NCBI RefSeq assembly: GCF_963921235.1
Contig: NC_086097.1
Span: 141,672,001-141,736,000 of the forward strand
Reading direction: 5' to 3'
DNA from: Mobula hypostoma
Taxonomy: Eukaryota
Length of the DNA: 64,000 nt
Below the pieces are notes generated by a model. That model saw only the letters and a list, made by a program, of their open reading frames with translations. It had not been told where the DNA came from and made no database searches. The translations under genes were made by a program, and so were the position numbers. Of this stretch, positions 26,030 to 61,064 are shown piece after piece. Position 1 is the stretch's first letter; every line of letters begins with the position of its first letter.

Positions 26030-27420
26030 TTGCAGACAACATGAAGGTAGGTGGAGGAGGAACAGGGAGCAGGGAGTCTGTAGAAGGACAGATTAGGAGA
26101 GTGGGCAAAGAAGTGGCAGATAGAATTTACTTAAGGGAAATGTATGGTCATCCACTTTGGCAGAAGGAATACAGGCATAGACTATTTCTAAATGGGGAGA
26201 AAATTCAGAAATCACATGTGCAAAAGGACTTGAGTCCTTAAGCAAGATTCCCTAAAGGTTAATTTGCAGGTTGATTCAGTGGTAAGGAAGGCAGATGCAA
26301 TGTTAGCAACGCACACAAAATGCTAGAGGAACTCAGTAGGCCAGGCAGCATCTATGGAAAAGAGTAAACAGTCGACATCTTGGGCTGAGACCCTTCATCC
26401 AGCAACAGCAGATTTTCTCATGTTTGCAATGTTACCATTCATTTCAAGAAGACTAGAATATAAAAGCAAGGATGTAATGATAAAGGCTTAATAAAGCATC
26501 GGTCAGATCACACTTAGAGTATTATGAGCAGTTTTGGGTCCCTATCTAAGAAGATATGTGATGGCGTTGGAGAGGGCCCAGAGGAGGTTCATGAGAAATA
26601 ATTCCAGTTATGAAAGGCTTAATAGAGTCACAGAAAAGTACAGCAAAGAAACAGGCCCTTTGGCCTGCTAGTCCATGCTGAAACCATTTAAAATGCCTAC
26701 TCTCATCGAATTTCACCAGGACTAAAGTCCTCCATATCATACTGTCCATGCACCTATCCAAACTTCACTTAGATGTTGAAATCTAGCTTTCATGCACCAC
26801 TTGTGCTGGCAGCTCATTCCACACTCTCATGACTCTCTGAGTGAAGAAGTTTCCCCTCCTGTTCCCCTTAAACTTTTTACCTTTCACCCTTAACCCATGA
26901 CCCCTGGTTGTAGTCCCACCCAACTTCAGAGGGAAAAGCCTGCTTGCATTTACCCTATCTATACCTCTCATAATTTTGTACATGGAGTGTTTGATGGCTC
27001 TGAATCTGTATTCACTGGAGTTTAGAAGAATGAGGGGTGATCTCATTAAAACCTATTGAATATTTAAAAACTTAGAGAGAGTAGATGTGGAGAAAATATT
27101 TCCTATAGTGGGAATGTCTAGAACCAGAGGGCACAGACTCAGAAAAGAGGGAACAGAATTTAGAACAGAGATAAGGAGGAATTTCTTTAGCCGAGGGTGG
27201 TTGATCTGTGAAAGTTATTACCACAGGTGACTGTGGAGTCCAAGTCACTGGGTATATTTGAAGCGGACGTTGAAAGGTTCTTGGTTAGTAAGACCATCAA
27301 AGGTTACAGGGAGACGGGAGGAGAATGGGGTTGAGAGGGATAATAAATCAGCTACGATGGAATGGTAGTACAGACTCGATGGGCCGAACAGCCAGATCTG
27401 CTCCTACGTCTAATGATTCT
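26030..27420 (+). mobile_element. CR1 RT/3' end fragment containing a PLE-tail copy (about 26309-26400) and an inverted CR1 3' fragment (about 26620-26980)
   Basis: CR1 RT remnants ending in gatgggccgaa...tgctccta; nested pieces recognised by sequence similarity to other copies in the window. Confidence 0.75.
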
Positions 27421-27737
27421 ATTGTGTTTCTTTGTATTTACTGTGTATGCCTGCAAAAAAATGAATCTTGGGGTTGTATATGGTGACATATATGTACTTT
27501 GATAATAAATTAACTTTGAACTTATGGTCTTATAGTCTAATGTCCTGCCTAACGCCTCCATAACTGGCCCTGATTTTAACCTCTGGACCATTTTGTTTTC
27601 AAGGGCTGGGGTGAAAGGGCTTAGGTGAGCAGTGAGATATCAGGGACTGATAGAATCAACAGTTGCAATTGGGGAGAGGAATGGTATTCATAGAGTCATA
27701 GAATAATGCAGCACAGAAACAAGCCCTTAAGGTCTAT

Positions 27738-29619
27738 TGTTAGGGTGTATTCTTGAGTGAGGGTATATAGCAAATATTAATTTCAACAGCAACCAGTCTT
27801 CAAATTTGAATGTGGATTGCAGATTGAATTTAAAATGCACCTCAGAACATTGGTCTTCTTGGAGCTGCAGACTGGGGTTGATTGCAAAACAGGAAACACC
27901 CACTCACCTGAGATGCCTAGTTATATATGGTGCAACGAGAGAGACAGAGGTGATTAACACTCATTTTGGGTGCGTTGCTGCGAAGATCTACATGTTTGAA
28001 ATTTTGTGCAACTGAAAGGAAACATTACGAATGCATTGTAAATTGTTACCTTTGTTCTTTTATGTACAAAATGTAATGTAATATTGGGTTAGGAGGCCTC
28101 TTCTTCCAAGAGTCCTCCAGTAAGATGCCTGTTGTTGTCCGGAATAAACACTTCTGTATCACCAGCTTTAGTGTATCCTGGTAACTTCATTCACAGTCAC
28201 AACATTTGGGGGCTCTTCTGGGATATGTTTGTATCCCATTGTTTGGCCGGCGATCTCAGCAGTCTAAGTAGGTGAGTACTTTTTTAAAAACGCAAACATG
28301 AGGAAATCTGCAGATGCTGGAAATTCAAGCATTAGGGTTGACGAAGGGTCTCGGCCCGAAAAGTCGACTGTGCTTCTTCCTATGGATGCTGCCTGGCCTG
28401 CTGTGTTCCACCAGCATTTTGTGTGTGTTGAGTATTTTTTTAAGATTAGTACTCACACTTAGGTCTGTTCAAGTCAATGTCACAGGATCACGAAATATCA
28501 TGAACACGGCGGAGAACTGGTAGATATAAAAAGTAGTGTGGAGTGTGTGTGCATGCATATGTGTTTATGTAAGAGTCCAGACATTTTTGTGTAATTTAAT
28601 GACACAAGGTCACCATTTGCAAAAGGTGGTTGCTGACCGTCCAGGACACCAGTGGGGTGTATGTATACTTCTTCGGGGAACTGCATAGTAGCAGACTCAT
28701 TTGCGAGTGTGTTTTATGTGTTTTAAGAATAAGCATGACACCTTGGTATAACAGTTTTAAATGGAAAGGAATACAACACACATTATGAGTTCAGATCCAC
28801 ATAAGTGGAAGATAGCAGTGTATGTACTCTGTCGTTTTAAGTAGCTAATGTTTAATTTTTATCCACCATTTATATTTTGTATAGTGTGAGAATTAGTGTG
28901 GAGATATTTGAGAGAGAGGTTATACCTAGAAATATCCATTGGGATGGTACCTTTTGAGGTCAGGCAATGTCAGATCGAGAACCCTGACCAGTCATTGACC
29001 TTGATTACAACAATCCATAAGCTCTTCACCCCGGGGAAAAGCAGAACATTTTGTCAGAGGTGTCCTCACTTAAAGTTGCCTGTGGGAATGCTGAATTCTA
29101 GCGCAAGCTCAAGGAAATGATTGAAGTTCACCAGATGCACCCCAAAAATATACATGTGTTGGTGAAAGCAAAAAACCCGAGGAATATGAGGGACAGTACG
29201 GCCCAGGTAGTGCAGGATGGTACATGGGCAACTACCAGAAATGCCAACAATGAAGAGAGGTATTGCTTCTTTAAAAGGGAAGTGAAGCAGCAACTGTGGG
29301 GGAGGGGGGTTGAGAGTAACTGGGGAACAATAAGTGAGTGGTTCAGAAAGCTGATGAGCTTGTCATCGATTATGCAGAAGGTATATATCAATTGTATGAG
29401 TATTCAGGATTAGATAATGCAGGGAGAAATTACCCAGTCTTCTTGAAAATGCTTAAAGAAGGCCTGAGCTCAGCCCACCAGGAAGTTTTAGATTTGGGGA
29501 TAGCAATGGGATCAACCACTGAGAGTGTCTCCAGTATGATGCCTGCTTGATGTCCGGAATAAAGACTTCTACGTCACCAGTTTCAGTATCTCCTGGTGAC
29601 TTCATTCATAGTCACAGCA
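27738..29619 (+). mobile_element. Internally deleted endogenous retrovirus (class I-like, tRNA-Pro primed): 5' LTR, PBS, gag remnant, partial 3' LTR
   Basis: LTR 27738-28204 (TG...CA, AATAAA); PBS TGGGGGCTCTTCTGGGAT at 28207-28224 (16/18 to the tRNA-Pro PBS); donor-like taggtgagta; gag-like remnant at about 29117-29520; LTR 3' end repeated at about 29523-29619; 5-bp TSD TCTAT at 27733-27737 and 29620-29624. Confidence 0.85.
28288..28428 (+). mobile_element. Short Penelope-derived hammerhead module (degenerate core) inserted in the ERV leader
   Basis: ttgacgaagggtctcggcccgaaaagtcgactg plus the conserved tail; TSD of about 15 bp tgagta(c/t)ttttttaa on both sides. Confidence 0.8.
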
Positions 29620-30308
29620 TCTATGACAACCATTATGCCCATCTTAGCTAGTCTCTTTAATCTACATTTGACCCATATCTCTCTAAATCTTCCCTATGTA
29701 CCTATCCAAGCATCTTCCAAATGCTGTTGTTATTCTTTCCTCGACCACTCCTCTGGAAAGCTCATTCTATATGTGCACCACCATCTACATGAAGAAGTTG
29801 CCTCTGACATCCCTATTAAATCTTTCCCCACTCATCTTGAACCTTTGTTCTCCCTATGACTCCTACACTTAATGCCCTGACTGATGAAGACCAGCATGCC
29901 AAACACCTTCTTTACTAAACCAGGTTGACAGATCAGTATTTGGTCCTTGAGACTTGGGACAATACCAGAGCCAGAAAGCAGGATGGCAGCAGGTGCAAGA
30001 TCACAGTAAGGAGGTCCAAAGCTTGGCTTACCAATAAGATAATATTGTTCCAGAAGAGACCAAGAACAGACACTCCCACAACTAGGTGGTTCACTCCCCA
30101 TGTAATATTTCCAAAGGATTGCTATATGTAAAAAAAGCATCAACATGTGCATACTGGTATGTAACTTGGGGATATTGGGGATGAAGTTAAATAAGTAGAC
30201 TTATGGGATTTATCTGGAAAAGGCAGTTTGTCAGAATTCATAATTTTCAATTTCGTAATTGTAAGATATATTAATGTTATGAAATTCTGACATAACATGA
30301 AATGAAAT

Positions 30309-30998
30309 ACACTCAGTCCCTCCTGTATCTAATAAAATAGCCAATGAATGTATGTTAACAACAAACAGCTCCATCCCTCCCCCTCCTGTCTTCTCCTATC
30401 ATTTTGGATCTTCCCCTCCCCCTCCCACTTTCAAATCTCTTACTAACTCTTCTTTCAGTTAGTCCTGACGAAGGGTCTCGGCCTGAAACATCGACTGTAC
30501 CTCTTCCTAGAGATGCTGCCTGGCCTGCTGCGTTCACCAGCAACTTTGATGTGTGTTGAATGAATGTATGTTCATAGTTTGCTGTAGCCCATCCACTTTA
30601 AGGTTTGACATGTTGTGCACTGAGCGATGCTCTTCTGTGCACACTTATGATGTAGCACATGGTTATTGGAAGTTATTGTCGAGTTTCTGTAAGTTTAAAC
30701 CAGTCTGGCCATTCTCCTCTGACTTCTCTCACTAAGAAGGTGTTTTCGTCCAAAAAACTGTCGCTCATTTGATGTTTTTTTTCTCACACCATTCTCTGTA
30801 AACTCAAGAGATTGATGTGCATGAAAATCCCAGGAGATCAGCAGTTTCTGAGATACTCAAACCACTCCATCTGGTACTAATAATCATTCCATGGTCAAAG
30901 TCACAAAGATCACATTTCTTCCCCATTCTAATGTTTGGTTTGAATTAGATACTTATATTATTGAGCAGGTGTACCTAATAAAGTTGTCACTGAGTGTA
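30309..30998 (-). mobile_element. Non-autonomous Tc1/mariner-type element, interrupted by a PLE fragment
   Basis: Ends tacactcagt ... aataaagttgtcactgagtgta; same family as 55208-55747. Confidence 0.7.
30357..30558 (+). mobile_element. Penelope 3' end (pLTR) fragment with hammerhead motif
   Basis: Near-identical to 39176-39324; cagttagtcctgacgaagggtctcggcctgaaacatcgactg; 14-bp TSD AATGAATGTATGTT at 30343-30356 and 30559-30572. Confidence 0.88.
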
Positions 30999-31049
30999 TA
31001 CATTATGTAATTAAATTTCTACTCCTATGTGAGTACTAAGCAACTCATA

Positions 31050-31362
31050 AACACAAGAGATTCTGAAGATGCTAGAAATCCACAGCGACAAAAACAAAAT
31101 GCTAGAGGAACTCAGCAGATCAGGCAGCATTTATGGAAATGAATAAACAGTTGACATTTCTGGCTGAGACCCTTCTTCAGGACTTAGCTATTTAAATTGT
31201 TGCTGAAACTAAGTATAACGTTATGAAATCCAATCATAGACAAGAGAAAATCTGCAGACGCTAAAAATCCAAGCAACACACCAAAATGCTGAAGGAACTG
31301 GCAGGCCAGGCAGCATCTATGGAAAACAGTACAGTTGATGTTTCAGGCAGAGACCCCTCAGC
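31050..31362 (-). mobile_element. Two older tandem PLE hammerhead-tail copies
   Basis: Reverse complement agtcctgaagaagggtctcagccagaaatgtcaactg (about 31148-31184) and a second copy at about 31240-31362, both with the ctgctgagttcctc...gcatctgcag-type tail. Confidence 0.75.
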
Positions 31363-31536
31363 ATACATAAAGTTATGAACGCTACAAGTGCAACATTGAC
31401 TTTTCAAAATAAATGTATGCTGCAATAAGAAGAACTTTTTTAATGCAAGTCAGTATCAGAAACCTGATATCAGAATGTATACATTCAACTGAAAGTACTT
31501 TGGAGAAGATACCTGTTTATAATTAATGGTACTTAC

Positions 31537-32330: not shown

Positions 32331-32413
32331 CTTGGAAGTAAAATTGTAACGATTAATTTCTGCTTTGAATGGAGCATTTTCCAGAATTCTTTTCATACTT
32401 TACAAATACTTAC

Positions 32414-33735: not shown

Positions 33736-35364
33736 CAGGTTTCCCCGTCAGCCGAAGGTAGAGCGTTCCTATGAAACGGTTCGTAAGCCGAAATTTCGTA
33801 AAGCAAAGAAGTAATTACCGTTTATTTATATGGGAAAATTTTGTGAGCGTTTGCAGACCCAAAACTAACCTACCAAATCATGCCAAATAACACATAAAAC
33901 CTAAAATAAGAGTAACATATAGTAAAAGCAGGAATGATATGATAAATACACAGTCTATATAAAGTAGAAATACTTTTCCACAATCATTACTGAACTGTTC
34001 TCCATAGCGAAAATCTCACGCAAGCGCCGTCAGCAGAAAATCTCACGCAAGCGCTGTTGGCAAAAACACGGCGCAAGTGCTCTCCAGTAACCTTTAAGCT
34101 ATGAAGCTGCCAAATCATATGTAAAAATACACAGCCGATATAAAGTAGAAATAATGTATGTACAGTGTAGTATCACTTACTGGAATCGGGAAGACAGCTT
34201 GCCGAGCACACTGATGATAGTGTGTTAGGCTGAGTCGTCGCAGGCTGGGGTGATGCAGTGGCACCCACCCTCTAGGCCGCCGAGTGATACATTGTCACGA
34301 GGTATGCAGGCGTCCAGCGGTAGCCAGGAGGCACACAGCACATCTTTAAGAAAAAAGCCGAAATAAACATGCTAATTAATTAGGTGCTGCCCAGCACGTA
34401 ATTGTCGGCCCAGATCAGTGCCGATTGCATCGCCTTTGATCTGAGCTGACATTTACGTGTGGGGCGGCACCTAATTAATTAGCATGTTTATTTCAGCTTT
34501 TTTTTTAAAGATGTGCTATGTGCCTCCCGGCTACCGCTGCATTCTCTGCGAATCGGTACAGTATCTGTCCGGGGCCTGGGTGTTGGGGTGGTGGGACACC
34601 GGGGTGTCATCTCGTCATCTGTGTCTATTAGAGCAGGCAGCTCATCTTCTCCTGTGACTGCCCGCCTCGATGTCGAAGGTCGAGGTTCGTCGTCTGCTGT
34701 AGCTGATGTGGAAGGCTTGCTTGACTGCTGAGCCTCACGCATTTTTCTATCATACAGTTCTCTATAAGGACTCAAACTATCTTGCAAATATCCCCTAAAC
34801 CTATGTACCCTTTCAAAATTAAAGTCGTACTTTATCATTGCAGCAAAAATCTCACACAGTTGCTTCACGTTCATTTCACTACTGCATTTGGTTTCGACTG
34901 TTATCGTTTCCTCTTCCAATTGCAAAAGCTCTTCATCCGTCAGTTCTTGGTCATGGGATGCCAAAACCTCTTCAACATCATGTTCGTCAGCTTCCACAAG
35001 CCAAACTCACTTTCCTTACTTCGTTCACCACGATCAAAATGCTTAATTATGTCTAGTTTTACGCTAAGTGTTACACCCTTACGAGCTCTTTCAGGCCGTT
35101 CCGACACCATGAACTCATCTTGCAAACGGCTGCTCATGGGCACGTGTTTAAGCAATGCCAGTGAGAATGCAGTTCCGAATCCGGGGGAGAGCGGCTGCTC
35201 AGGGCGCGCGCTGCCTTTTATCGTGCGCTGATTTTTTTATCGCGCGCTGCTTTTTTTTCGTAACAGTGAAAACACCTTCTGAAAGCGAAAACAGGGTACT
35301 AATGTCGGTCTTTCGTAACAGTGAGGTTTCGTAAAGCGAACATTCGGAAAGTGGGGGACACCTG
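33736..35364 (-). mobile_element. Tigger/pogo-type DNA transposon, internally deleted
   Basis: TA-flanked TIRs CAGGTTTCCCC / GGGGACACCTG; CENP-B-like N-terminus RARKGVTLSVKLDIIKHFDRGE joined to acidic C-terminus DVEEVLASHDQELTDEELLQLEEE; DDE core absent. Confidence 0.88.
34315..34539. repeat. Long hairpin (arms about 105 bp, short spacer) inside the Tigger-like element
   Basis: cagcggtagcc...aaataaacatgctaattaattaggtgc...cagatca mirrored by tgatctg...gcacctaattaattagcatgtttattt...ggctaccgctg. Confidence 0.9.
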
Positions 35365-36607
35365 TAAGTATCGGGCCCAACACAGGGCCCCTGTGGAACA
35401 CCACTAGTCACCAACATCCATTCAGGAAAGTCTCCCTTTATCCTTACTCTTGCCTCCTGCCAATCAGCCACTGCTTTATCCATTGTAGAATTTTTTCCGT
35501 AATACCATGGGCTTGTAGCTTGTTAAGCAGCCTCATGTATGACACCTTGTCAAAGGCCTTCTGAAAATCCAAGTACACAACATCAATCGATTCTCCTTTG
35601 TCTATCCTGCTTGTTACATCTTCAAAGAATTCCAACAGATTTGTCAGGCAAGATTTTCCCTTGAGGAAACCATGCTGACTATGGCCTATTTTATCATATG
35701 CCTCCAAGTAAAGTTAGTCCCCCTCCAGTTTAGGTGCAAACTATCCCTTCTGTACACATCCCACCTTCCTTGGAAGAGAGACCAACTCCTTAGTCACATA
35801 TTAAACTGTATAATCTTCCTAGTTCTGGCCTTACTAGCACAAGGCATGGGTAGCAATCCTGAAATCACAACTCTGGAGGTCCTTCCTTCTAAATTAGCAC
35901 CTAATTCCCTGAAATCCCTATGCAGAACCTCATCACTCATCCTACCTATATCATTTGTACCTACACGGACCACAACTTCTGGCTGTTCACCCTCCTACTG
36001 AGGACTCAATCCGAGATATCCCAGAGCCTGGCACCTGGGAGGCAACAGACCATCTGGGAATCTCATTCTGGCCCACTGAGCCTCCTGTGCGTTCTCCTAA
36101 CTAATGAATCCCCTATCACCACAGCATGCCTCTTCTTCCCCCTTCCTGTCTGAGCTACAGAGGCAAACTTAGTGCCAGAGACCTGACCACTGTGACTTTC
36201 TTCTGCTAGGTCATTCACATCCCCCCCCCCCCGCCCCCAACAGTATCAGAAGTGATATACCTGTTGTTGAGGGGGATGGCCACAGGGGCACTCTGCACTG
36301 GCTCCTTAACCCCTTTCTGTTTCCTGACTGTTACCCAGTTTCCTATGTCCTAGTGTAACTACCTCTCTATATGTCCTATCTATCACTCCTTCAGTCTCCT
36401 GAATGATCCAGAGTTCATCCTTAGCGTGGTTTGATAGAAGCTGCAGCTGGATGCAATTCTTGCCAGTTACTACCATTGAGAAGGAGGTACAGGAACCTCA
36501 AGACCCAAACTCAGTGATTCAGGAAGTGATTTTACCCAGCTACCATCAGATTTCTGAATGGTCCATGAACCTATGAATGCTATGTCATTATTCCTTTTTT
36601 TGTCGCA

Positions 36608-36750
36608 AATACGAGGAAATCTGCAGATGCTGGAATTTCAAGCAATACACATAAAAATTGCTGGTGAACACAGCAGGCCAGGCAGCATCTATAGGCAGAG
36701 GTACAGTCCACGTTTCGGGCCGAGACCCTTTGTGAGGACTAACTGAAAGA
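36608..36750 (-). mobile_element. PLE hammerhead-tail copy with mutated core
   Basis: Reverse complement cagttagtcctcacaaagggtctcggcccgaaacgtggactg (CUGAnGA and GUC mutated) plus the conserved tail. Confidence 0.85.
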
Positions 36751-37163
36751 AAAAAAATCCTTTCTTTGTACTGTTTTAAAATTTATAGTAATTTTATATC
36801 ATTGCACTGTATTGCTGCCATAAAACAACGAATTTCATGTCATACAAGAAAATGATAATAAATCTGATTATGATTCTATTATAATAATATGTAGTGCACA
36901 ATGTAAAATGGTTATGATAAATCAAAAGCAACTATTACATTACAAGAGTATTCTGGTTCATGTATTGCATCTTTGAAGATTTTTCTGAATGTACTCTTGA
37001 AATAAATGAAGTGACCTTAATTTATTTTTGCCTTTATGATGCTACACTCAATGAAAAGTTCTGCTGATGTCAAGGGAAGTTATTCTCATTCCAACTCTGG
37101 AATTCAGCTTGTAAGTCCATTTTTAGATCAAAGCTGGAGACAAGAGATCATAGGGATTGTAAA

Positions 37164-39328
37164 CACCAGGAATTCTGCAGATGCTGGAAATTCAAGCAAC
37201 AAACATCAAAGTTGCTGGTGAACACAGCAGGCCAGGCAGCATCTCTAGGAAGAGGTACAGTCGACGTTTCGGGCTGAGACCCTTCATCAGGACTAACTGA
37301 AAGAAGAGCTAGTAAGAGATTTGAAAGTGGGAGGGGGAGGGGAGATCCAAAATGATAGGAGAAGACAGGAGGGGGAGGGATGGAGCCAAGAGCTGGACAG
37401 TTGATTGGCAAAAGGGATATGAGAGGATCATGGGACAGGAAGCCCAGGGAGAAAGAAAAGTTGGGGTGGGGGGAACCCAGAGGATAGGCAAGGGGTATAG
37501 CGAGAGGGACAGAGGGAGAAAAAGGAGAGTGAGAGAAAGAATGTGTGTATATAAATAAATAACGGATGGGGTATGAGGGGGAGGTGGGGCTTTAGCGGAA
37601 GTTTGAGAAGTCAATGTTCATGCCATCAGGTTGGAGGCTACCCAGATGGAATATAAGGTATTCTTCCTCCAACCTGAGTGTGGCTTCATCTTTACAGTAA
37701 AGGAGGCCGTGGATAGACATATTGGAATGGGAATGGGACGTGGAATTAAAATGTGTGGCCACTGGGAGATCCTGTTTCTCTGGCGGACAGAGCGTAGGTG
37801 TTCAGCAAAACGATCTCCCAGTCTGCGTCGGGTCTCGCCAATATATAGAAGGCCACATCGGGAGCACCGGACGCAGTATATCACCCCAGCCGACTCACAG
37901 GTGACGTGTCACCTGGAAGGCCTGTTTGGGGTCCTGAATGGTGGTAAGGGAGGAAGTGTAAGGGCATGTGTAGCACTTGTTCCGCTTACAAGGATAAGTG
38001 CCAGGAGGGAGATCGGTGGGGAGGGATGGGGGGGACGAATGGACAAGGGAGTCGCATAGGGAGCAATCCCTGTGGAAAGCAAAGAGAGGGGGAGAGGGAA
38101 AGATGTGCTTAGTGGTGGGATCCCGTTGGAAGTGGCAGAAGTTACAGAGAATAATATGTTGGATCCGGAGGCTGGTGGGGTGGTAGGTGAGGACAAGGGG
38201 AACCCTATTCCTAGTGGGGTGGTGGGAGGATGGAGTGACAGCAGATGTGTGTGAAATAGGGGAGATGTGTTTTAGAGCAGAGTTGATGGTGGAGGAAAGG
38301 AAGCTCCTTTCTTTAAAAAAGGAGGACATCTCCCTCGTCCTGGAATGAAAAGCCTCATCCTGAGAGCAGATGCGGCGGAAACGGAGGAATTGCAAGAAGG
38401 GGATGGCATTTTTGCAAGAGACAGGGTGAGAAGAGGAATAGTCCAGATAGCTGTGAGAGTCAGTAGGCTTATACTGGACATCAGTAGATAAGCTGTCTCC
38501 AGAGATAGAGACAGAAAGATCTAGAAAGTGGAGGGAGGTGTCGGAAATGGACCAGGTAAACTTGAGGGCAGGGTGAAAGTTGGAGGCAAAGTTAATGAAG
38601 TCAAGAGCTCAGCATGCGTGCAGGAAGCAGCGCCAATGCAGTCGTCAATGTAGTGAAGGAAAAGTGGGGGACAGATACCAGAATAGGTTTGGAACATAGA
38701 TTGTTCCACAAAGCCAACAAAAAGGCAGGCGAGACCCAACGCAGACTGGGAGATCGTTTCACTGAACACCTACGCACTGTCTGTCAGAGAAAGCAGGATC
38801 TCCCAGTGGCCACACATTTTAATTCCACGTCCCATTCCCATTCCGATATGTCTATCCACGGCCTCCTCTACTGTAAAGATGAAGCCACACTCAGGTTGGA
38901 GGAAGAATAACTTATATTCCATCTGGGTGGCCTCCAACCTGATGGCATGAACACTGACTTCTCAAACTTCTGCTAATGCCCCACCTCCCCCTTGTACCCC
39001 ATCCGTTATTTATTTATACACACACATTCTTTCTCTCTCTCTCCTTTTTCTCCCTCTGTCCCTCTCACTATACCCCTTGCCCATCCTCTGGGTTCCCCCC
39101 GCCCTTTTCTTTCTCCCTGGGCCTCCTGTCCCATGATTCTCTCATATCCCTTTTGCCAATCAACTGTCCAGCTCTTGGCTCCATCCCTCCCCCTCCTGTC
39201 TTCTCCTATCATTTTGGATCTCCCCCTCCCCCTCCCACTTTCAAATCTCTCACTAGCTCTTCTTTCAGTTAGTCCTGACTAAGGGTCTCGGCCTGAAACG
39301 TCGACTGTACCTCTTCCTAGAGATATTT
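37164..39328 (-). mobile_element. Penelope-like element, 5'-truncated, with inverted pLTR arrangement
   Basis: Minus part 37164-38728: RT C-terminus (YIDD, QFLRFRRICS) and GIY-YIG (IYCVRCSRCGLLYIGETRRRLGDRFAEH); plus part 38728-39324 is an inverted copy of the 3' end; 8-bp TSD ATTGTAAA at 37156-37163 and 39329-39336. Confidence 0.92.
37258..37299 (-). ncRNA. Minimal type I hammerhead ribozyme with intact core (PLE pLTR)
   Basis: 5'-cagttAGTC CTGATGA A GGGT CTCA GCCC GAAAC GTC GACTg-3': core boxes CUGAUGA / GAAAC / GUC, 4-bp stem II, stem I AGUC:GACU, palindromic ACGU in place of stem III. Activity untested. Confidence 0.8.
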
Positions 39329-39924
39329 ATTGTAAATCCTGTTTGTAGCACTGTCGGTGAAGCCTCCCATAATTTTGCAAATCACTTTGCACACAATTGC
39401 GAGTAGACTGATTGGGCAGCAATTAGTCAGATGAGATTTACCCTGTCATTCTTGTGAACGGGCAATGCCTCTACAATTTTCCATATTGTTGGTTAGGTGT
39501 AACTGAGATAATCACGCTGGAACAGCTTGGTTCAATTAATTATGGAGTGGAGGTTACTGCAGGGTTAAGATATTGGTTGGCATGGATGAGTAGGGCTGTA
39601 GGACCTATTTCCATGTTGTAGAAATCTATGAATCTAACTGTTGTGATTCAGGTATTGTCTCTCCTCAATGAGATCAGGTGTAAAAGCCAGTGAAATCCCT
39701 GCTAACATGTGATGAGAGTGGTAAGTGTATGCCCAAACTATGGAAGACTCTGCAAAGAGACACAGATGTAAGTCTTATTTTTGCATATTTATGCTAATGG
39801 AGTTACATCATCATACACACTAGAGGTAAAATGTTACTTCCATAACAATATGAAGAAAATCATAAATTGTTAGCATCTGGAAAGCCAGCTATTATTCAAA
39901 AGAAAAATGAAAAAGTGATCAAAC

Positions 39925-44374: not shown

Positions 44375-44604
44375 GTAACACATATCAAATGCTGAATAAC
44401 CTCAGCAGGTCAGGCAGCATTGATGAAAAGGAATAAAAAGTCAATATTTCGGATCGAGACCCTTCATAAGGTCCTGATGAAGGGTCTCGGTCTGAATTGT
44501 TGACTACTAATATCTTTCCATAGATGCAGTCTGATCTGCTGAGTTCCTCCAGCATTTTCTATGTGTTACTTTACACTTGCAGTATCTGCAGAATCTCTTG
44601 TGTT
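44375..44604. mobile_element. Head-to-head palindromic pair of PLE hammerhead tails, inside an old Rex1/Babar fragment
   Basis: ...tttcggatcgagacccttcataag|gtcctgatgaagggtctcggtctgaa... with mirrored tails on each side. Confidence 0.8.
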
Positions 44605-44799: not shown

Positions 44800-46140
44800 T
44801 TCAGAATCAGAATCAAAATCAGAATCAGGTTTATTATCACTGGCATGTGACATGAAATTTGTTAACTTAGCAGCAGCAGTTCAATGCAATGCATAATCTA
44901 GCAGAGAAAAAAAATAATAAATAACATTTTAAAAAATTATAATAAACAAGTAAATCAATTACATATATTGAAGAGATTTAAATAATGTGCAAAAACAGAA
45001 ATACTGTATATTAAAAAAAAGTGAGGTAGTGTCCAAAGATTCAATGACCATTTAGGAATTGGTTGGCAGAGGGGAAGAAGTTGTTCCTGAATTGCTGAGT
45101 GTGTGCCTTCAGGCTTCTGTACCTCCTACATGACGGTAACAGTGAGAAAAGGGCATGCCCCTGGGTGCTGGAGGTCCTTAATAATGGACGCTGCCTTTCT
45201 GAGACAACGTGCCCTATTTCGGTCCTGTGCATTAGCCCCTCCATACCAGACAGTGATGCAGCCTGTCAGAATACTCTCCACAGTACAATTATAGAAGGTT
45301 TTGAGTGTACTTGTTGACTCCTAATAAAGTATAGCCACTGTCTTACCTTCTTTATAATTACATTGATATGTTGGGACCAGGTTAGATCCTCAGAGATCTT
45401 GACACCCAGGAACTTGAAGCTGCTCACTCTCTCCACTTCTGATCCCTCTATGAGGATTGGGATGTGTTCCCTCGTCTTACCCTTCCTGAAGTCCATAATC
45501 AGCTCTTTCGTCCTACTTACGTCGTGCCAGGTTGTTGCTGTGGCAACATTCCACAACTTGGCATATCTCACTCCTGTACACCCTCTCATCACCAACTGAG
45601 ATACTACCAACAATGGTTGTATCGTCAGCAAATTTCTAGATGGTATTTGAGCTATACCTATCCACACAGTCATGTGTATATAGAGAGTAGAGCAGTGGGC
45701 TAAGCACACACTCCTGAGGTGCGCCACTGTTGATCGTCAGTGAGGAGGACGTTATCACCAATCAGCACAGATTGTGGTCTTCTGGCTAGGAAGTCGAGGA
45801 TCCAATTGCAGAGGAAGGCACAGAGGCCCAGGTTCTGTAAATTCTCAGTCAGGATTGTGGGAATGATGGTATTAAATGCTGAGTTATAGTCGATGAACAG
45901 CATCCTGACGAAGGGTCTCGGCCTGAAACGTCGACTGCGCCTCTTCCTATAGATTCTGCCTGGCCTGCTGCGTTCACCAGCAACTTTGATGTATGTTGCT
46001 TGAATTTCCAGCATCTGCAGAATTCCTGTTGTTAGCATCCTGACATAGATGTTTGTGTTGTCCACGTGGTCTAAAGCCATGTGGAGAGCCATTAAGATTA
46101 CGTCTGCCGTTGACCTATTGCAGCGATAGGCAAATTGCAT
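44800..46140 (-). mobile_element. Rex1/Babar-type LINE 3' portion
   Basis: [53 protein letters not shown]; (ttctga)n tail at about 44800-44828. Confidence 0.85.
45899..46044 (+). mobile_element. 135-bp PLE hammerhead module inserted in the Rex1 RT (coordinates include TSDs)
   Basis: ctgacgaagggtctcggcctgaaacgtcgactg plus tail; 11-bp TSD AGCATCCTGAC at 45899-45909 and 46034-46044. Confidence 0.9.
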
Positions 46141-52665: not shown

Positions 52666-52671
52666 TTCTAA

Positions 52672-53329
52672 GACAACACACACAAAATGCTGGAGGAACT
52701 CAGAAGGCCAGGCAGCATCTATGGAAAAAAAAAGTACAGTCGACATTTCGGGTCGAAACCCTTAGGCAGGGCACGCAGAAAGTGTGGCACATAGAACCTG
52801 GAGGGAGAGGCAACAGGAGAAACAATCAATTGAATGCGAGTATCTGGGGTCCTCAGAGGGTCCAAATTGAGAAGCTTGAAAATGAGTCTGGAAGCCATGT
52901 GTTACAAACTGGTGGTGAAGACAAGTTCCCAGGAAGGATACATGGCTGCAGTAGTGGGTCTGGATATGCACATGGTCAAAGAGTCGGAGAGAAGCAGAGA
53001 TCACAGAGGAGCAGTGAGAGGGTTTCACTGAACTCCTGTCGATGGGAAGATTTAAACTTCTTCAGGGTCCCTGGAAGAGACTTTACAGTGTAGTAATTCA
53101 ATCACAAACAAGAGAAAATATGCAGATGCTGGAAATCCAAGCAACGTACATAAAATGATGGAGGAACTCAGCAGGCCAGGCAGCATCTATGGAAAAAAGT
53201 AGTCAACATCTTGGCCCGTAACATAGACTGTACTTTTTTTTCCATAGATGCTGCCTGGCCTGCTGAGTTCCTCCAGCATTTTGTTTATGTTGCTTGGTTT
53301 TCCAGCATCTGCAGACTTTCTCTTGTTCG
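52672..53329 (-). mobile_element. Deleted Penelope derivative: putative ORF N-terminal fragment between two direct tail copies, plus an inverted tail copy
   Basis: Tail copies at about 52672-52763 (-), 53105-53215 (-) and 53227-53329 (+); intervening ORF SHVSFLGTCL...FQASQFGPSEDPRYS inferred to be the PLE N-terminus. Confidence 0.65.
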
Positions 53330-55207
53330 AATTCTTTGAGGCAGGATTTACAAGCATTTGAAGCATAATCTGATTAGGGATAGTCCATGTGATTTAGGAG
53401 GACTAGTCATATCTTACGAGCAGCCTCATTGATTTTTTGTGGAAGTAATGAAACATATCGATAAAGGCCAGCAGTGGATGCGGCGTATATGGATTTTAGT
53501 CAACCATTTAACTAGTTCACATGGTAGACTCATTCAGAACTTCACAGCTGGAGGTTTGTGTGGGTGTGTAAGCGAGGTGGTGGGCGTGAGAGGTGGGAAA
53601 GGGACTTGATTTGCTGTTGTTGCTGCTGCTGCTTGTATTGTTCTGTGGAATGTTGTGGGCATACTATATTGATGCTGGAATGTGTAGCAACACTTACAGG
53701 CTGCCCCCAGCACATCATTGGGTGTGCTGGTTGTTAACACAAACAAGACTTTTCATTGTATGTTTCGATGTACATGTGGTAAATAAATCTGAATCTATTG
53801 AAAGAACAAATTTAACCAAATGAATGATTTTTATAACACCTGCAGTGTCATAGGATGTCTTGTTTTTTTCTTTGGAGCTCTCAGACAAAGTTTAAAACTG
53901 TGCACAACACAAGATACTGGGATGTTGGTCCAATAGGGTTGAAACAGTAAATTAAAGGAGGAGGATATTGAAGGATTTAAGGAGGGGTTTATTTCAGGAC
54001 AACTAAAAGTGTGGCTACATATGGTGGGTCATGAAAATACCAATGTGCAAGTGGACAAAACTGGAGAATTGCAAGGATCTCTACAGTTTGGAGGGCTCCA
54101 GATTATTGGGGAGACAAAAAGGGAGTTTTTGCCAAGAATGGGAATTTTTAACCGTAGAAATTGGGGTCAAGCATAAAACAGTGCACAATAGTAACATTGA
54201 ACAGAAGTTCATGGTTGAGAGGAGTTTGAAGAGATATGGTCTGGGTGCAGGTAGATGAGTCTAGATAGAACAGGTCAAAGTGGACTAGGTGGGCAAAGGG
54301 CACAAGACAAATAAATAAATTCATAAATACATTAAGAGTAAGAGGATTATCCAGCGAGAATTGGTCTTACCTGACAAAATAATGATAAATTTGCTGAATG
54401 TCTTTTTCACTGAGGGGAAGAAGATACAATACCAATGAAAGAAAATAATCCCAAAATAATAGAAACATGGGAACTTCCTGTACTCAAAACTGTAAAACAA
54501 AACTTGGCTTTTGAATCCTATACTGAACAATCGCTAATGTCACCTGGTTGCTTAAGCAGAGGAGAGAAAACAGGCTGCCAATATCGGCTTCTGAAAAATG
54601 CCTAGAATCAGCCGTTGAAACAAAATGCTTGAACTGTAAAACAAATATGAGGCTGCTGATGTGACTTTATCAAAAATAAATAATATTGGACTAATCCATA
54701 TAGGAAAATGCATGTTTGGTAACCTAGAATATAAATAGGAAAAAACTGAAGAAGCATTAGGCCTGGTAGCATCTCTGGAAACTAAAACATTACAAATTTT
54801 CTTGTTCATGTCACAATTTAGTAATATTTCAAACCCAGTTGATCAAATTAAAGGAATCATTTTTGCTGTTATCAAAATGGAGTGACATATGGCATTTGCT
54901 AAACTCCACACTGAAATGTATTAAGAAAATTGCAGATTTATGGATTTGCAACTAGCTTTGGTCACAGGTTGCAGGATAGAAGACAGAGGAAGATAAAGTA
55001 TATATAATTTGATCACCAGGATGTGATATTCTCAGGGATCTTAACTGCTTCCTCCTTTCACATTATTTATTAATTATATGGATGAAGGAATACAGAGTAA
55101 AGCAAAAAAAAAAGTGTTGTTTGAAGATGACACCAAATTAGTAAGGAATTGAGGGGCGAGTGAGCAGTACAGTTGTAACAATCATCAAGATGAAGCATAC
55201 ATAATGA

Positions 55208-55747
55208 ACACTCAGTGATAATTATATTAGGAACACCTGGACACCTGTTTGTTATTAGAAATATCTAATCAGCCAATCCGTTGGCAGCAACGCAATGCAT
55301 AAAATCATGAAAGCTTGGTCAAGAGTTTCAGTTGTTGTTCAAAACAAATATTGGAATGGAGAAGAGTTGTGATCCAAGTGATTTTGACCGTGGAATAGTT
55401 GTAAGTGCAGGCAGGACAGTTTGAAACTTCTGATCTTCTGGGATTTTCACACACAACACTCCCCAATGTTTACAGAGAATGGTGTGAAAAACAACAAAAG
55501 AAATCCAGTTCTGGGGATGAAAATGCCTTGTTAATGAGAGAGGTCAGCGGAGAGTGGCCAGACTGGTTCAAGCTGACAGGAAGGCAGCAATAAATCAAAT
55601 AGCCACAGGTTACAACAGTGGTGTGCAGAAGAGCATCTCTGAATGCACAACACATTGAAACAAAGTGAATGGGCAAAAGACCACGAACAGTTATTCAGTA
55701 GCCACCTTATTAGGTGAAGGAGGTCCCTAATAAAGTGGCCACTGAGC
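55208..55747 (+). mobile_element. Non-autonomous Tc1/mariner-type element
   Basis: TIR-like ends cactcagtg..attattagg and cctaataaagtggccactgag; HTH remnant ETSDLLGFSHTTLPNVYREWCEK. Confidence 0.75.
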
Positions 55748-57439: not shown

Positions 57440-58290
57440 GAATCCAAGGTGGTGATGAATTGGCCAATAGGAGAGAGATTAAAGATCTGGTTGAGTGGTA
57501 CCAAAACAACATCCTCTCATTCAATGTGAGCAAAACCAAAGAGTTGATTATTATCTATAGGAGAAAAAAAATGGAGAACCATGAGACAGTGCTCTTTAGG
57601 GAAATGGAGATGGAGAGGGTCAATAGATTTAAATTCCTTGGCATCACAATGTCAGAGGATCATTTCCTGAGACCAGTACTGTATATAGGTGTCACCACAA
57701 GGGAAGGAATGACACCACTTCTACTCTCTCATAAGTTTGCACAGCTTTGGCATGTCACCACATACTTTGACCAACTTCTATAGATGCACGGTGGAGAGTA
57801 TTCTAAATGGTTGCATCATGGCTGGTATGGAAATACCAATGCCTAGAAATGGAAAAGTCTATAAGAAGTGGTGGATATAGCCCAGCTTATCACAGGAAAA
57901 GCCCTCCCCACCATTGAGTATACTTACATGGAGAAATGACACAAGAAAACAGCAACCTACCGTCCAGAACATACCCTCTAATTTACTATTGCAACCAGTC
58001 AGGAGGTACAGAAGCCTTAGGTCCCACACAACCAGGTTCAGAACCATCAGGCTCCTGAACCATTATGGATAAGATCAATCACCACTACTCTCAACTGACT
58101 CTATAATCTACAAACTGGCTTTCAAGGACTCTTTTCAACTCTTGTTCCTAGTAAATTTTTATTTGTACAGTTTGTCTTATTTTGCATGTTTGTAGTTTTT
58201 GTTTACCTTTTCATGAAATTCTATTGTATTTCTTTCCTGTAAATACATACAAGAAAATTGTATATGGTAACATGTATATACTTTGATAAT
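57440..58290 (+). mobile_element. Old Rex1/Babar 3' fragment, flanked by very old RTE remnants (about 57340-57420 and 58430-58620)
   Basis: LSFNVSKTKELII, RFKFLGITMSED; flanks translate to WQEHFEDL and KGENSECGNYR. Confidence 0.65.
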
Positions 58291-59462
58291 GAATTTAATC
58301 TGAACATTGAGTTATCCATTACTCTAACCCTGGAAAATCTCAGTGCCATTCCCAATTCAGCTTTAAAATATAGCCTGTTCAGTAATAAAAAAGTATTCAG
58401 TAATAGAAAAGTATTTCTAGCATAAATTCCTATCTTCATCCTCGTCTTTTATGAAGAGAAAGCAACCAGCTATCTGCCATACCCACATCGTGATCATCTT
58501 GGAGAAAGGAGAAAACTCTGAATGTGGGAATTACAGAATGGTGCTCTCCTATCTGCCATGGGCAAAGCCATTATAAGTATCCTCCTCAAACTATCACCTT
58601 CACTGGCTGAAGAGCTCCTCTAGTATTCCTCCAGAGGTACAATGGGCATTCCTACCTGAGAATTAAAAGAACAACATATTAAACAAAATCACCATTTTAA
58701 AATCACCATGGATTTATGATGCCATTAAAACTTTTGACTCTGTTAAAAGAGGAATATGGACAATCTCAAATTTGCTTGTCCATAAGAAGTCCAATATCAT
58801 TCTACGTCTGCTATATAGGCTGGAGTGAAATCAATAACTGTACAGCTTAAAGATCAACTTGTATTGGAGATTGTAAAGAGAAGATTCACTAAGGTGATTA
58901 CTGGAATAAAGGAATTGATGTCTGAAGATAGGTTGATCAGATTGCTTCTTCATTTTTTAGTCTAAATGAATTGTCTGGACCAAAAATGTCAACTGTCCAT
59001 CTCCCTCCATAAATATCTGGCCTGCTGAGTTCCTCCGTTGTTTTGTGTGTTGTTTCAGATTTCAGCATCTGCAGTATCTTATGTCTCAAGGTCATCTCTG
59101 ACATTTTTACTTAAGTGTAAGAAAATATGGACCTTTCACTAAACATCTTTTATGAATGAAAATTGAATTTAGTGGGATATCAAACACGTATGGAGTTAGA
59201 AGGAATGTATGATTAAACTAGATGGAATATTAAATGATATAGAACACCAGTGGAGAAAGAAGAATTTGACACTCCCCTCTCCTCTTTGAACCTTACACCC
59301 TCTGAATTCACTCCCCTCCACTCTCTCTGCACCATTTCCAACCTTACCAGACAAAGGGACTGCTGTTGTAGTGTGGTGGACTGACCTCTACCTTGACGGG
59401 GCCGTGGGCAACTCTCAGACACCTTCTCTTTCTTACTCCTTGAAACGGACTCCAATCTCAAA

Positions 59463-59796
59463 CAATGCTCCCTCTAATTTGTAATGATCAGTGTGCGCAA
59501 AAATCTTGTGCAATTTTTTACCCAGTGACAATAACATGTGTGCACTGAATAATTTCTTCAATAAAAACAGTATAGATAAGCCAGTTCTAAAATCTGCAGA
59601 CAAATTATCACAAACTCCACATTGTCAACACCATCGCATCAGAAACCGGAAAAGGAAATGTGGTTGTGTACGATCGTGAAATATACCTAACATGTCAACA
59701 AGGCAGAGAGTGTCAAGCTTTTGCGTGCAGTTTAAATTTCTTTGTGCACTAGTAGCAAAAGACGTATGCGCGTACACACACCTTAGAGAGAAATTG
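59463..59796. mobile_element. MITE-like element inserted in an old Penelope fragment (about 59270-60770)
   Basis: Imperfect TIRs CAATGCTCCCTCTAA / TTAGAGAGAAATTG; no clear TSD; flanks resemble decayed PLE RT (DKG..VVVW.TDLYL) and 3' UTR. Confidence 0.55.
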
Positions 59797-60508
59797 CTCT
59801 GGGCAACAAGAAAATTGTCTCCAACACCATCACCAACCTCATCAACTCTGGAGAACCCCCATCCACTGACACTTTCCCTTTCTCCCATGGTCCACTCTCC
59901 TCTCCTATCAGGTTCCTTCTTCTCCAGCCCTTTACCTTTTCAGCTCTCCTGGCTTCACCCATCTCCTTCTAGCTAGCACAAGGAAATCTGCAGATGCTGG
60001 AATTTCAGGCAACACACATAAAAGTTGCTGGTGAACGCAGCAGGCCAGGCAGCATCTCCAGGAAAAAGCACATTCCTGACGAAGGGTCTCGGCCCGAAAC
60101 GTCAACTGTACTTCTTCCTAGAGATACTGCCTAGCCTGCTGCGTTCACCAGCAACTTTCATGCGTGTTGCTTGAAATTCCAGCATCTGCAGATTTCCTCG
60201 TGCTAGCTAGAAGGAGATGGGTGAAGCCAGGAGAGCTGAAAAGATGAAGGGCTGGAGAAGAAGGAACCTGATAGGAGAGGAGAGTGGACCATGGGAGAAA
60301 GGGAAAGTGTCAGTGGATGGGGGTTCTCCAGAGTTGATGAGGTTGGTGATGGTGTTGGAGACAATTTTCTTGTTGCCCAGAGCAATTTCTCTCTAAGATG
60401 TGTGTACGCGCACACGTCTTTTGCTACTAGTGCACAAAGAAATTTAAACTGCACACAAAAGATTGACACTCTGTGCCTTGTTGGCATGTTAAGTATATTT
60501 CACGATCG
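59671..60508. repeat. Large inverted repeat (arms about 400 bp) whose spacer is a hammerhead core
   Basis: 59671-60072 mirrors about 60106-60508 (mirror ORFs 59692-59976 + and 60203-60487 -); spacer ttcctgacgaagggtctcggcccgaaacgtcaac. Confidence 0.95.
60076..60103 (+). ncRNA. Hammerhead ribozyme core (intact boxes, native stem I lost)
   Basis: CTGACGA A GGGT CTCG GCCC GAAAC GTC. Confidence 0.7.
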
Positions 60509-61064
60509 AAGGATCTCGGCCCGAAACGTCAACTGTGCTTCTTCCTCAAGATGCTGCCTGGCCTGCTGCATTCACCAGCAACTTTTATGTGTGTTCCTTC
60601 TAGCTAGTCCGCCTTTCCCTCCCCTCCCCCTTTTTATTCTGGTAACTCCCCCCACCCACCCCTTCCTTTCCAGTCCTGAAGATTTGTCTCAGCCAGAGAC
60701 GTCGACTGTTCATTCATTTCCATAGATGGTGCCTGACCTGCTGAGTTCTTCCAGCTTGTGTGTGGGTATTGCTCTGGAATTTAACTGTATTTATACAGGA
60801 ACAAGAAAAAGTAATTAGCCTGGTTGGTTATGGTAAAGAAAGACACAGTAACTGCCGGTGGTTTATTGCTGAGACTTTGTGCAAAATTTACTTGGTTACT
60901 AATTTATTTGGTGGTTAGGCTTTGAACTGTGCAGTGTAATTAAAGGCTTTTGGGAGAGTCGTGTTTATGATCGGAATCTTGCAACAATTTCCATCAATCA
61001 CCTCCATGAAGTTAGCGGCTTTACATCCATTGCTTTTAGTACCGTGGGGATTAACTGAGCCACG

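What the first reader, a model, noticed from the sequence alone, without database searches (positions are those of the whole stretch)
26309..60770. A dispersed, independently mobile hammerhead-ribozyme mini-element derived from Penelope ends
Seen: about 15 loci (near 26309, 28288, 30357, 31050, 31240, 36608, 37164, 39270, 44375, 45899, 52672, 53105, 58975, 59977-60202, 60509, 60670) share a 100-140 nt unit. The unit is AGUC-CUGAnGA-A-GGGU-CUCR-GCCC-GAAAC-GUC-GACU followed by a conserved tail (gatgctgcctggcctgctg...cagcatctgcag). The same unit terminates the GIY-YIG Penelope at 37-39 kb, which identifies its source. Several ORF-less copies have their own 11-15 bp TSDs (28.3, 30.4, 45.9, 60.0 kb) and at least two tail subfamilies are present. 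Known: PLE termini carry minimal type I hammerheads with a palindromic stem III thought to cleave as dimers, and an extra A between A9 and G10.1 is a tolerated natural variant. Inference: at roughly one copy per 4 kb this behaves like a very abundant ribozyme-bearing non-autonomous element (retrozyme-like) that may be poorly annotated in this lineage.
Basis: partly seen in the sequence, partly recalled or inferred. Interest (0 to 1): 0.75.

Follow-up and report, generated by a model that had tools for sequence, protein, structure and literature searches.

The report
Penelope ends starting at their hammerhead
These short repeats in ray-like DNA are real insertions of the ribozyme-bearing end of a known kind of jumping gene (a Penelope-like element), with the ribozyme motif broken in every short copy here; most begin just in front of the motif rather than at its cut site, so they are likely dead-end by-products of the parent element and not a self-spreading ribozyme family.

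Summary
All 16 listed loci are real (21 arms, 14 insertion units; 9 of 14 have TSDs beyond chance). They are 3' pLTR ends (minimal hammerhead plus tail) of a Neptune-type Penelope-like element (PLE) whose closest named relatives are from rays. They are not one uniform unit: 6 of 14 are head-to-head, and 3' ends fall at +65/66 or +91..+110 from the cut site, the optional PLE tail. They are also not random debris: 13 of 21 arms start 11-35 nt upstream of the cut site (P<=0.0035); 1 of 21 starts at it. Only 1 of 19 aligned arms, the ORF-bearing copy, keeps a whole hammerhead. The window has no tandem array of the unit, short copies mix with long ones in both subfamilies, and no composite junction repeats. 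Best reading: reverse transcription of the parent's uncut RNA stops at a fixed point at helix I, likely the RNA's 5' end, often primed from both target strands; two loci tile one RNA as twin priming predicts. Not a retrozyme; independent spread is not shown. No genome was held, so genome-wide support is indirect. The scan found this class before on other DNA.

The parts
37161..38727 (-). 5'-truncated Neptune-type PLE: RT C-terminal part, Cys linker, GIY-YIG endonuclease (frameshifted), 3' UTR, hammerhead, full tail
37259..37294 (-). only whole minimal hammerhead in the window; predicted cut between 37263 and 37262 (reference point for all +/- numbers)
37774..37908 (-). GIY-YIG domain start
   Evidence: PF01541, E 5e-5, above curated cut-off
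38728..39324 (+). inverted arm of the same insertion (-579..+22), 4.5% diverged from the main arm; 8-bp TSD candidate 37156-37163 / 39329-39336
   Evidence: P 0.035
26309..26429 (-). split-tail insertion: body -26..+66 on minus, inverted distal tail stub (about +74..+107) at its 5' end; 13-bp TSD, 1 mismatch
28287..28430 (+). split-tail insertion: inverted stub +64..+108 (28287-28331), 7 other bases, body -27..+66 (28339-28430); 15-bp TSD, 1 mismatch
30368..30558 (+). 5'-truncated copy -124..+66 with UTR; 14-bp exact TSD 30343-30356 / 30559-30572
31050..31184 (-). older-subfamily short copy -32..+101, no TSD found
31228..31363 (-). short copy from about -24, full tail; 13-bp TSD, 1 mismatch
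36607..36751 (-). short copy -43..+102; 12-bp TSD, 1 mismatch (36592-36603 / 36758-36769)
44377..44603 (.). old head-to-head pair: arm -29..+65 (minus) joined to arm -31..+101 (plus); 10-bp TSD, 1 mismatch
   Evidence: P 0.0175
45903..46033 (+). short copy -30..+101, core bases intact, stem I 2 of 4 pairs; 11-bp exact TSD overlapping the 5' end
52674..52763 (-). short copy -22..+66, no TSD found
53106..53327 (.). head-to-head pair, both arms with full tail, joined inside stem II (about -12); no TSD found
58960..59077 (+). heavily decayed short copy, no TSD found
59977..60596 (.). composite insertion: arm +1..+99 (minus, 59977-60075), arm -30..+99 (60074-60202), inverted copy of the left flank (60203-60508), arm about -24..+65 (60505-60596); 13-bp exact TSD
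60672..60780 (+). hammerhead/tail end of an older, longer PLE (second subfamily) whose UTR was the target of the composite above; RT-like remnants at 59218-59454 and 59787-59870
   Evidence: tblastn E 0.002 and weaker

Best explanation
The repeats are inserted copies of the hammerhead-bearing end of a Neptune-type Penelope-like retroelement, most starting just before the hammerhead, and they are likely dead-end products of the parent element's own reverse transcription rather than a self-propagating family. Inferred steps: (1) the PLE protein nicks target DNA and starts cDNA at one of two internal sites on its RNA, about +66 and +101 from the hammerhead cut site; (2) the template is uncut at the hammerhead, since copies keep the core; (3) cDNA stops at a fixed point at the start of helix I (about -32), most likely because the RNA begins there, so that priming at the pLTR/ORF junction near the RNA's 5' end runs off after 100-135 nt; a stop caused by the adjacent 3'-splice-site-like motif or by helix I microhomology is the alternative; (4) often both target strands prime, one at each site, and the two cDNAs are joined head to head, which gives inverted arms with the tail at one end only; (5) after insertion the copies decay neutrally. 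Shown here: identity of the parent, TSDs, the two 3' end classes, the 5' pile-up, the tiling at 26.3 and 28.3 kb, the decay. Not shown: where the RNA starts, cleavage, and which loci served as templates.
For: Parent: GIY-YIG, C-X4-C-X2-C linker, 82-88% identity to ray proteins and 43% to a full RT+GIY-YIG protein. 3' ends: 6 of 21 arms at +65/66, 13 of 21 at +91..+110, 1 at +22, 1 undetermined, as in the two start sites that bound the tail in the anole element PAc (PMC11167929). 5' ends: 13 of 21 in -35..-11; constant-hazard nulls P<=0.0035, uniform null over -45..+30 P about 0.001; 1 of 21 at the cut site, in line with PAc using unprocessed RNA. Short and long copies occur together in both subfamilies. 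No two of the 6 head-to-head units share a junction. 28.3 and 26.3 kb tile one RNA with a 2-nt overlap and an 8-nt gap; the same kind of joint (+72 to -32, opposite strands) is among the 15 of 563 joints shown and stands in 4 of 4 runs (4, 7, 2, 1 contigs). 4 of 6 head-to-head units have one short and one long end. PAc needs RNA beyond its start sites (first 172 nt of the ORF), which a solo copy lacks. Summed contig depth about doubles between -56..-29 and +8..+28 in 2 of 2 runs (7.1-7.4 to 15.2-15.6 million; 14.2-17.7 to 29.5-31.4 million), a weak sign that about half of the matching sequence does not continue into this subfamily's UTR.
Against: No whole genome was held, so the end statistics rest on 21 hand-curated arms that are not independent (14 units), and two weak tail-only hits were left out. 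The RNA start was not mapped; in D. virilis Penelope the start lies 121 nt upstream of the intron end (46-nt exon, 75-nt intron; PMC2377424) and it is the intron end that coincides with helix I (PMC4209133), which favours a processing or stop site over a transcription start. The loose-end pile at -31/-32 (111 and 204 contigs in X1) is partly the other subfamily's UTR, judging by its consensus, and cannot be separated. The tool states that contig depth is no copy number. The tree rests on 69 columns with 3 of 15 branches well supported and only 3 long copies; one subgroup (26.3a, 52.7, 53.2a, 53.2b, 31.3) has no close long partner in the window (best 72-79%). In the 60-kb composite the two inner arms differ by 11 of 99 bases while the duplicated flank differs by 10 of 308 (P 0.0065), so that locus used two templates, not one RNA read twice; 53.2 kb has the full tail on both arms.
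Confidence: 0.72

Rival explanations
1. A true non-autonomous, SINE-like family: some 134-nt copies are transcribed from about -32 and are themselves copied again by the PLE protein in trans.
For: Shared 5' boundary and own TSDs; high density (16 loci in 64 kb); copies with the full tail keep the predicted tail hairpin; one subgroup has no close long partner in the window; non-autonomous PLE families exist in Chlamydomonas (PMC8557442).
Against: Short copies fall with long copies in both main subfamilies; 5' ends scatter over 25 nt and each composite junction is unique in the window; recurring joints stand in few contigs (1-7 per run); PAc needs RNA beyond the start sites.
Confidence: 0.15
2. 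Non-LTR retrozyme: tandem units are cut by paired hammerheads to unit-length or circular RNA, which is reverse transcribed and dispersed as monomers.
For: A head-to-tail joint of the -32..+102 unit stands in 7 and 4 contigs (letters between not known); 31.1 and 31.3 kb lie in the same direction about 45 nt apart; animal retrozymes derive from pLTRs and have dispersed monomers (bioRxiv 10.64898/2026.07.22.740005).
Against: No tandem array of the unit in the window; copies are not bounded by cut sites (1 of 21); no permuted unit; 0 of the short arms has a whole hammerhead; 31.3 has its own TSD, so the pair is two insertions; the unit is shorter than the 150-450 bp repeats of PMC7229834.
Confidence: 0.05
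3. Ordinary random 5' truncation; the apparent boundary comes from detection bias and from subfamilies that share only the hammerhead and tail.
For: PLE insertions are highly 5'-truncated and most min-HHRs are single motifs related to truncated PLEs; subfamily UTRs do diverge at exactly -32 (60.7 kb; loose-end consensus); 4 short loci (31.1, 52.7, 53.2, 59.0) lack a TSD to fix their outer ends.
Against: A sensitive profile search found no strong tail-only fragments; 5' ends are fixed by a TSD or an inverted partner at 26.3, 28.3, 31.3, 36.6, 44.4, 45.9, 53.2 and 60.0 kb; truncation nulls are rejected.
Confidence: 0.08

Closest known systems
Minimal hammerheads (min-HHR) in pLTRs of metazoan PLEs (Cervera and De la Pena 2014, PMC4209133; parts 1-2 of 4 read)
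   Same: Type I motif, 4-bp helix I, extra base at the 5' end of stem II, palindromic stem III without loop; thousands of single motifs per genome ascribed to truncated PLEs, some pairs on opposite strands 100-700 bp apart.
   Different: Helix II is 4 bp here (7-8 bp in the Schistosoma families); cartilaginous fish are not named in the parts read; that paper does not map copy ends.
EN+ Penelope-like elements, Neptune clade (Craig et al. 2021, PMC8557442; Arkhipova et al. 2013, PMC3846280; passages read)
   Same: C-terminal GIY-YIG with CX2-5CxxC linker, 5' truncation, adjacent inverted copy, 30-40-bp tail at one end, TSDs, solo pLTRs.
   Different: Here the architecture is seen in 100-230-bp miniatures with a shared 5' boundary; Arkhipova 2013 proposes self-priming for head-to-head junctions, whereas the split-tail loci fit priming from both target strands.
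PAc, Poseidon of Anolis carolinensis (Frangieh et al. 2024, PMC11167929; parts 1-2 of 4 read)
   Same: Two internal start sites bounding the tail, both target strands cut and extended, unprocessed RNA as template, no reads ending at the cut site.
   Different: Poseidon clade; no 5' pile-up at the hammerhead or twin-primed joining is described in the parts read.
Non-LTR retrozymes (Cervera and De la Pena 2020, PMC7229834, passages; Li et al. 2026 bioRxiv 10.64898/2026.07.22.740005, parts 1-3 of 5)
   Same: ORF-less, pLTR-related, type I hammerhead, dispersed monomers; found in the one chondrichthyan sampled (mean consensus 363 bp).
   Different: Defined by tandem units with at least two whole hammerheads and circular RNA; not seen here.
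Twin priming in L1 (Ostertag and Kazazian 2001; only the citation seen; mechanism recalled)
   Same: Two cDNAs primed by the two target strands tile one RNA and are joined with one part inverted.
   Different: Here the internal priming point is a fixed, element-encoded site rather than a chance microhomology (inferred).

Membership tests
EN+ PLE, Neptune type (parent) | PLE-type RT followed by C-terminal GIY-YIG endonuclease | tested here: met
   PF01541 E 5e-5; 43% identity over 336 aa to P0019, which carries RVT_1 and GIY-YIG; the window's 237-aa piece alone had no Pfam match
EN+ PLE, Neptune type (parent) | CX2-5CxxC linker before the endonuclease (absent in Penelope/Poseidon) | tested here: met
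   C-X4-C-X2-C read in the translation; definition from PMC8557442. Nematis also has it.
EN+ PLE, Neptune type (parent) | Placement in the Neptune clade of an RT tree | not tested
   No named reference set at hand; the bioRxiv survey names Neptune and Poseidon as the groups in vertebrate classes
EN+ PLE, Neptune type (parent) | pLTR with hammerhead, optional 30-40-bp tail, inverted 5'-truncated copy, TSD | tested here: met
Minimal type I hammerhead | Invariant core, G10.1-C11.1, extra base after A9, palindromic stem III, short helix I | tested here: met
   Whole in 37.2 kb and in the majority sequence; broken in 18 of 19 arms
Minimal type I hammerhead | Self-cleavage as dimer or with protein help | not testable with these tools
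   No assay; contigs cannot show RNA ends
Non-LTR retrozyme | Tandem repeat with at least two consecutive whole hammerheads | tested here: not met
   0 of 8 tandem-repeat rows involve the unit; head-to-tail joints in only 7 and 4 contigs; short-read contigs could hide arrays
Non-LTR retrozyme | Unit bounded by cleavage sites | tested here: not met
   1 of 21 arms starts at the cut site
Non-LTR retrozyme | Unit-length linear and circular RNAs | not testable with these tools
   Only contigs were available
Non-autonomous (SINE-like) PLE family | Shared defined 5' end | tested here: inconclusive
   Ends cluster but scatter over 25 nt; also expected from run-off on the parent RNA
Non-autonomous (SINE-like) PLE family | Short copies form their own lineage apart from the autonomous element | tested here: inconclusive
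   Short and long copies mix in both subfamilies, but the tree has 69 columns and 3 long copies
Non-autonomous (SINE-like) PLE family | One structure repeated at many loci | tested here: not met
   6 of 6 head-to-head junctions in the window differ

The most novel reading that the evidence does not exclude
The miniature insertions record the Penelope transposition cycle: both nicked target strands prime cDNA on one uncut RNA at the two tail-bounding sites, and the copies run off an RNA end that lies at the first base of hammerhead helix I. This would explain the inverted pLTR and the one-sided tail in one step, and would mean that a large share of this element's insertions in rays are short run-off products.
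Probability: 0.45. Interest if true: 0.55.

Novelty: new member of a known kind. Interest (0 to 1): 0.3.

Why it matters
Solo minimal hammerheads from truncated PLEs have been known since 2014, so the class is not new. What could matter is the end anatomy: how PLEs make inverted pLTRs and one-sided tails is described as still undefined (PMC8557442), and an in vitro system now exists (PAc). The fixed 5' boundary and the split-tail insertions give exact predictions for that system. For annotation: these PLE-derived pieces cover about 7% of the window (4552 bp including the long copy) and could be mistaken for MITEs, SINEs or miRNA hairpins (Rfam gave sub-threshold hairpin matches at 53.2 kb).

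Tried and rejected
No whole genome was held. Pattern scans for more loci: metagenome 0 then 21, viral 0, prokaryote genomes 75; none of these 96 loci matched beyond 38 bases, so they were dropped as chance. No RNA holder listed; the two runs guessed as RNA were contigs and cannot show starts, strand or level. Copy number from contig depth was rejected (the tool says it is none). Covariation in the tail hairpin: 0 of 11 consensus pairs had a change on both sides; single-sequence folds had z of -1.0 to -1.7, so the hairpin is only a prediction. Splicing at the 3'-splice-site-like motif: no shared upstream exon in the short copies' junctions, and no loose end or joint at that place among the rows shown (most rows not shown). 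An initiator-like match at -32 was set aside because helix I fixes most of its letters. A simple fold-back origin for the 60-kb palindrome was rejected because its inner arms differ more than the duplicated flank. Core versus whole tail gave P 0.004 (10/137 vs 238/1463) but is confounded by subfamily differences in the tail. In one search the 60.7 5' end (-400) is a placeholder and the 26.3 stub was entered as +84 (later read as about +74); neither changes the count. Literature: 8 searches; Penelope + twin priming gave 3 papers, none about PLE mechanism by title or abstract start (one checked by passages); Penelope + Mobula gave 0; the dimer-cleavage paper PMC5785218 is not held (only its citation seen). 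Subscription papers, Repbase/Dfam entries and all supplements (not read; those of the bioRxiv preprint are closed) could already hold this family. Earlier scan notes by sequence: none.


Full report
Observation. A profile built from the copies and run over the window at full sensitivity gave 19 strong hits, two inverted tail stubs, two weak hits that I did not examine (54784-54746 and 53698-53669) and six hits with E above 1. I count 21 arms in 14 insertion units. Positions below are relative to the predicted hammerhead cut (between 37263 and 37262 on the minus strand). Rfam has no hammerhead match at E up to 1, so the identification rests on the published minimal descriptor (PMC4209133).

Parent and host. 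37161-38727 (minus) is a 5'-truncated, frameshifted Penelope-like element: the RT C-terminal part, a C-X4-C-X2-C linker, a GIY-YIG domain (PF01541, E 5e-5), a pyrimidine-rich UTR, the hammerhead and the tail. 38728-39324 is an inverted copy of 37241-37839, 4.5% diverged. The closest named proteins are from Mobula hypostoma and Hypanus sabinus (82-88% identity over the whole query), then sharks, so the host is likely a ray. The linker motif marks Neptune or Nematis and not Poseidon (PMC8557442); I did not build an RT tree.

TSDs. Against 400 random intervals, 7 of 14 units have a flanking direct repeat at P<=0.0025 (26.3, 28.3, 30.4, 31.3, 36.6, 45.9 and the whole 60-kb unit), 2 more at P 0.0175 and 0.035 (44.4, 37-39), and 5 have none (31.1, 52.7, 53.2, 59.0, 60.7). 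Short copies were therefore inserted as such. The target was the UTR of an older PLE that ends at 60672-60780.

3' ends. 6 of 21 arms end at +65/66, 13 of 21 at +91..+110, one at +22 and one is too decayed to call. The 36-nt difference is the optional 30-40-bp PLE tail, which in the anole element PAc lies between two internal start sites of reverse transcription (PMC11167929). In the predicted fold of the tail the first site lies just 3' of the apical loop and the second at the base of the hairpin, but the alignment shows no compensatory change (0 of 11 pairs).

5' ends. 13 of 21 arms start between -35 and -11; 4 start upstream of -45 (30.4, 37.2, the 39-kb arm, 60.7); 1 starts at -43; 1 starts at the cut site (60.0, left arm); 2 are tail stubs. 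Constant-hazard truncation with mean lengths of 40-500 nt gives such a cluster with P<=0.0035, and a uniform null over -45..+30 gives about 0.001. These are hand-curated ends, arms of one unit are not independent, and the two weak hits were left out. The boundary is the start of helix I (-32), not the cut site, so the template was uncut at this hammerhead; PAc also uses unprocessed RNA. Outside the window only short-read contigs were available. Summed depth about doubles from -56..-29 to +8..+28 in both DNA runs, rising over about 35 bases, which I read as a step near -30 blurred by the 31-letter words (inference, and the tool says depth is no copy number). Loose ends pile at -31/-32 (111 and 204 contigs in X1; 157 at -32 in X5) with low agreement (0.35-0.38), but their consensus begins like the second subfamily's UTR, so they mix true junctions with subfamily divergence. 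X1 may be the sample behind the window.

Ribozyme. 1 of 19 aligned arms, the ORF-bearing copy, has the whole motif; 5 of 19 keep the 11 invariant core bases, and the three short ones among them have 2, 2 and 3 of 4 helix I pairs. Several short copies lack part of helix I or of the core because they start inside it. Non-CpG core bases differ from the majority in 10 of 137 cells, the best-conserved tail block in 42 of 468 (P 0.61); against the whole tail P is 0.004, but that comparison includes subfamily differences. In the contigs, the core's CpG positions show 9-13% other letters, as expected from neutral decay. The motif is kept between subfamilies whose UTRs are unrelated, which points to selection on active parents and not on the inserted copies (inference).

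Independent family or by-product. Short arms group with long copies in both subfamilies (85-92% identity to the 37.2/30.4 type over +1..+66; 31.1 with 60.7), although the tree is weak and one subgroup has no close long partner here. The six head-to-head junctions in the window all differ. No tandem array of the unit is in the window and a head-to-tail joint stands in only 7 and 4 contigs, so the retrozyme definition of two consecutive whole hammerheads is not met. In PAc the RNA must reach beyond the start sites (first 172 nt of the ORF, start at 111-118); an inserted copy ends at a start site and lacks that part. By analogy solo copies are poor templates.

Mechanism. At 28.3 kb the distal tail (+64..+108) is inverted and joined to a body that runs -27..+66; at 26.3 kb the stub is about +74..+107 and the body -26..+66. 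The two parts tile one RNA, as expected if one target strand primes at the distal site and stops near the internal site, where the other strand has primed. The same kind of joint (+72 to -32, opposite strands) is among 15 of 563 joints shown and is present in 4 of 4 runs. 44.4 kb and the outer ends of the 60-kb unit also pair one short with one long end. PAc cuts and extends both strands. Against a single-RNA rule: 53.2 kb has two full tails, and the inner 60-kb arms differ by 11 of 99 bases against 10 of 308 in the duplicated flank (P 0.0065), so two templates were used there. Why cDNA stops at -32 is open. Run-off from an RNA that starts there is the simplest reading, since the hammerhead lies at the ORF start in PAc. 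But both subfamilies carry a pyrimidine tract ending in CAG at the boundary, with a branch-point-like motif in the younger one (motif consensus recalled), and in D. virilis it is the intron end, not the start site, that meets helix I. I give run-off about two thirds of the weight within the by-product reading.

Comparison and verdict. Single min-HHRs from truncated PLEs, pairs on opposite strands, inverted pLTRs and one-sided tails are all in print. I found no paper in the held library on the 5' pile-up or on twin priming in PLEs, but subscription papers, repeat databases and supplements were not seen. My reading was noted before I saw that the scan had reached the same conclusions on other DNA; those notes are unchecked and are not counted as support. 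Verdict: real and abundant, a new member of a known kind, not a retrozyme and probably not self-propagating; interest 0.3, mostly for the testable insertion mechanism.

Noticed in passing
window 59671-60596: A PLE insertion that carries an inverted copy of about 305 bp of its own left flank (3.2% diverged), ending at a palindromic 8-mer; inner arms come from two templates. Mechanism unexplained (joining of two copies of the same broken end is one option).
   Followed up: partly
window 30440-30459, 37298-37317 (minus), 60640-60673: Pyrimidine tract plus CAG directly before helix I in both subfamilies, with a branch-point-like motif in the younger one; resembles the intron end at helix I in D. 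virilis Penelope. No sign of splicing in the rows seen.
   Followed up: partly
window 59218-59454 and 59787-59870: Weak tblastn matches to the N-terminal part of PLE RT proteins (E 0.002 and weaker): remnants of an older, internally deleted element.
   Followed up: partly
window 54746-54784 and 53669-53698 (minus): Weak profile hits that may be tail-only fragments (E 0.0014 and 0.038).
   Followed up: no
window 34315-34539: A 225-bp imperfect palindrome (87%) unrelated to the PLE unit, beside a frame that looks like a DNA-transposon remnant (34488-35006; likeness recalled, not tested).
   Followed up: no
window 5917-8454: 845-aa open frame that looks like an L1-type reverse transcriptase (label recalled, not tested).
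   Followed up: no
window 14-17 kb, 21.8-27.4 kb, 32.8-35.7 kb, 40.7-43.5 kb, 48.8-50.1 kb, 18.5-19.0 kb, 52.0-52.7 kb: Many other decayed elements: CR1/L2-like and RTE-like LINE pieces, a hAT-like transposase piece and a Tc1-like piece (labels recalled, not tested). No host gene was apparent among the frames listed.
   Followed up: no
window 31050-31363: Two short copies in the same direction about 45 nt apart; one has its own TSD and a broken core, so this is not a tandem unit.
   Followed up: yes
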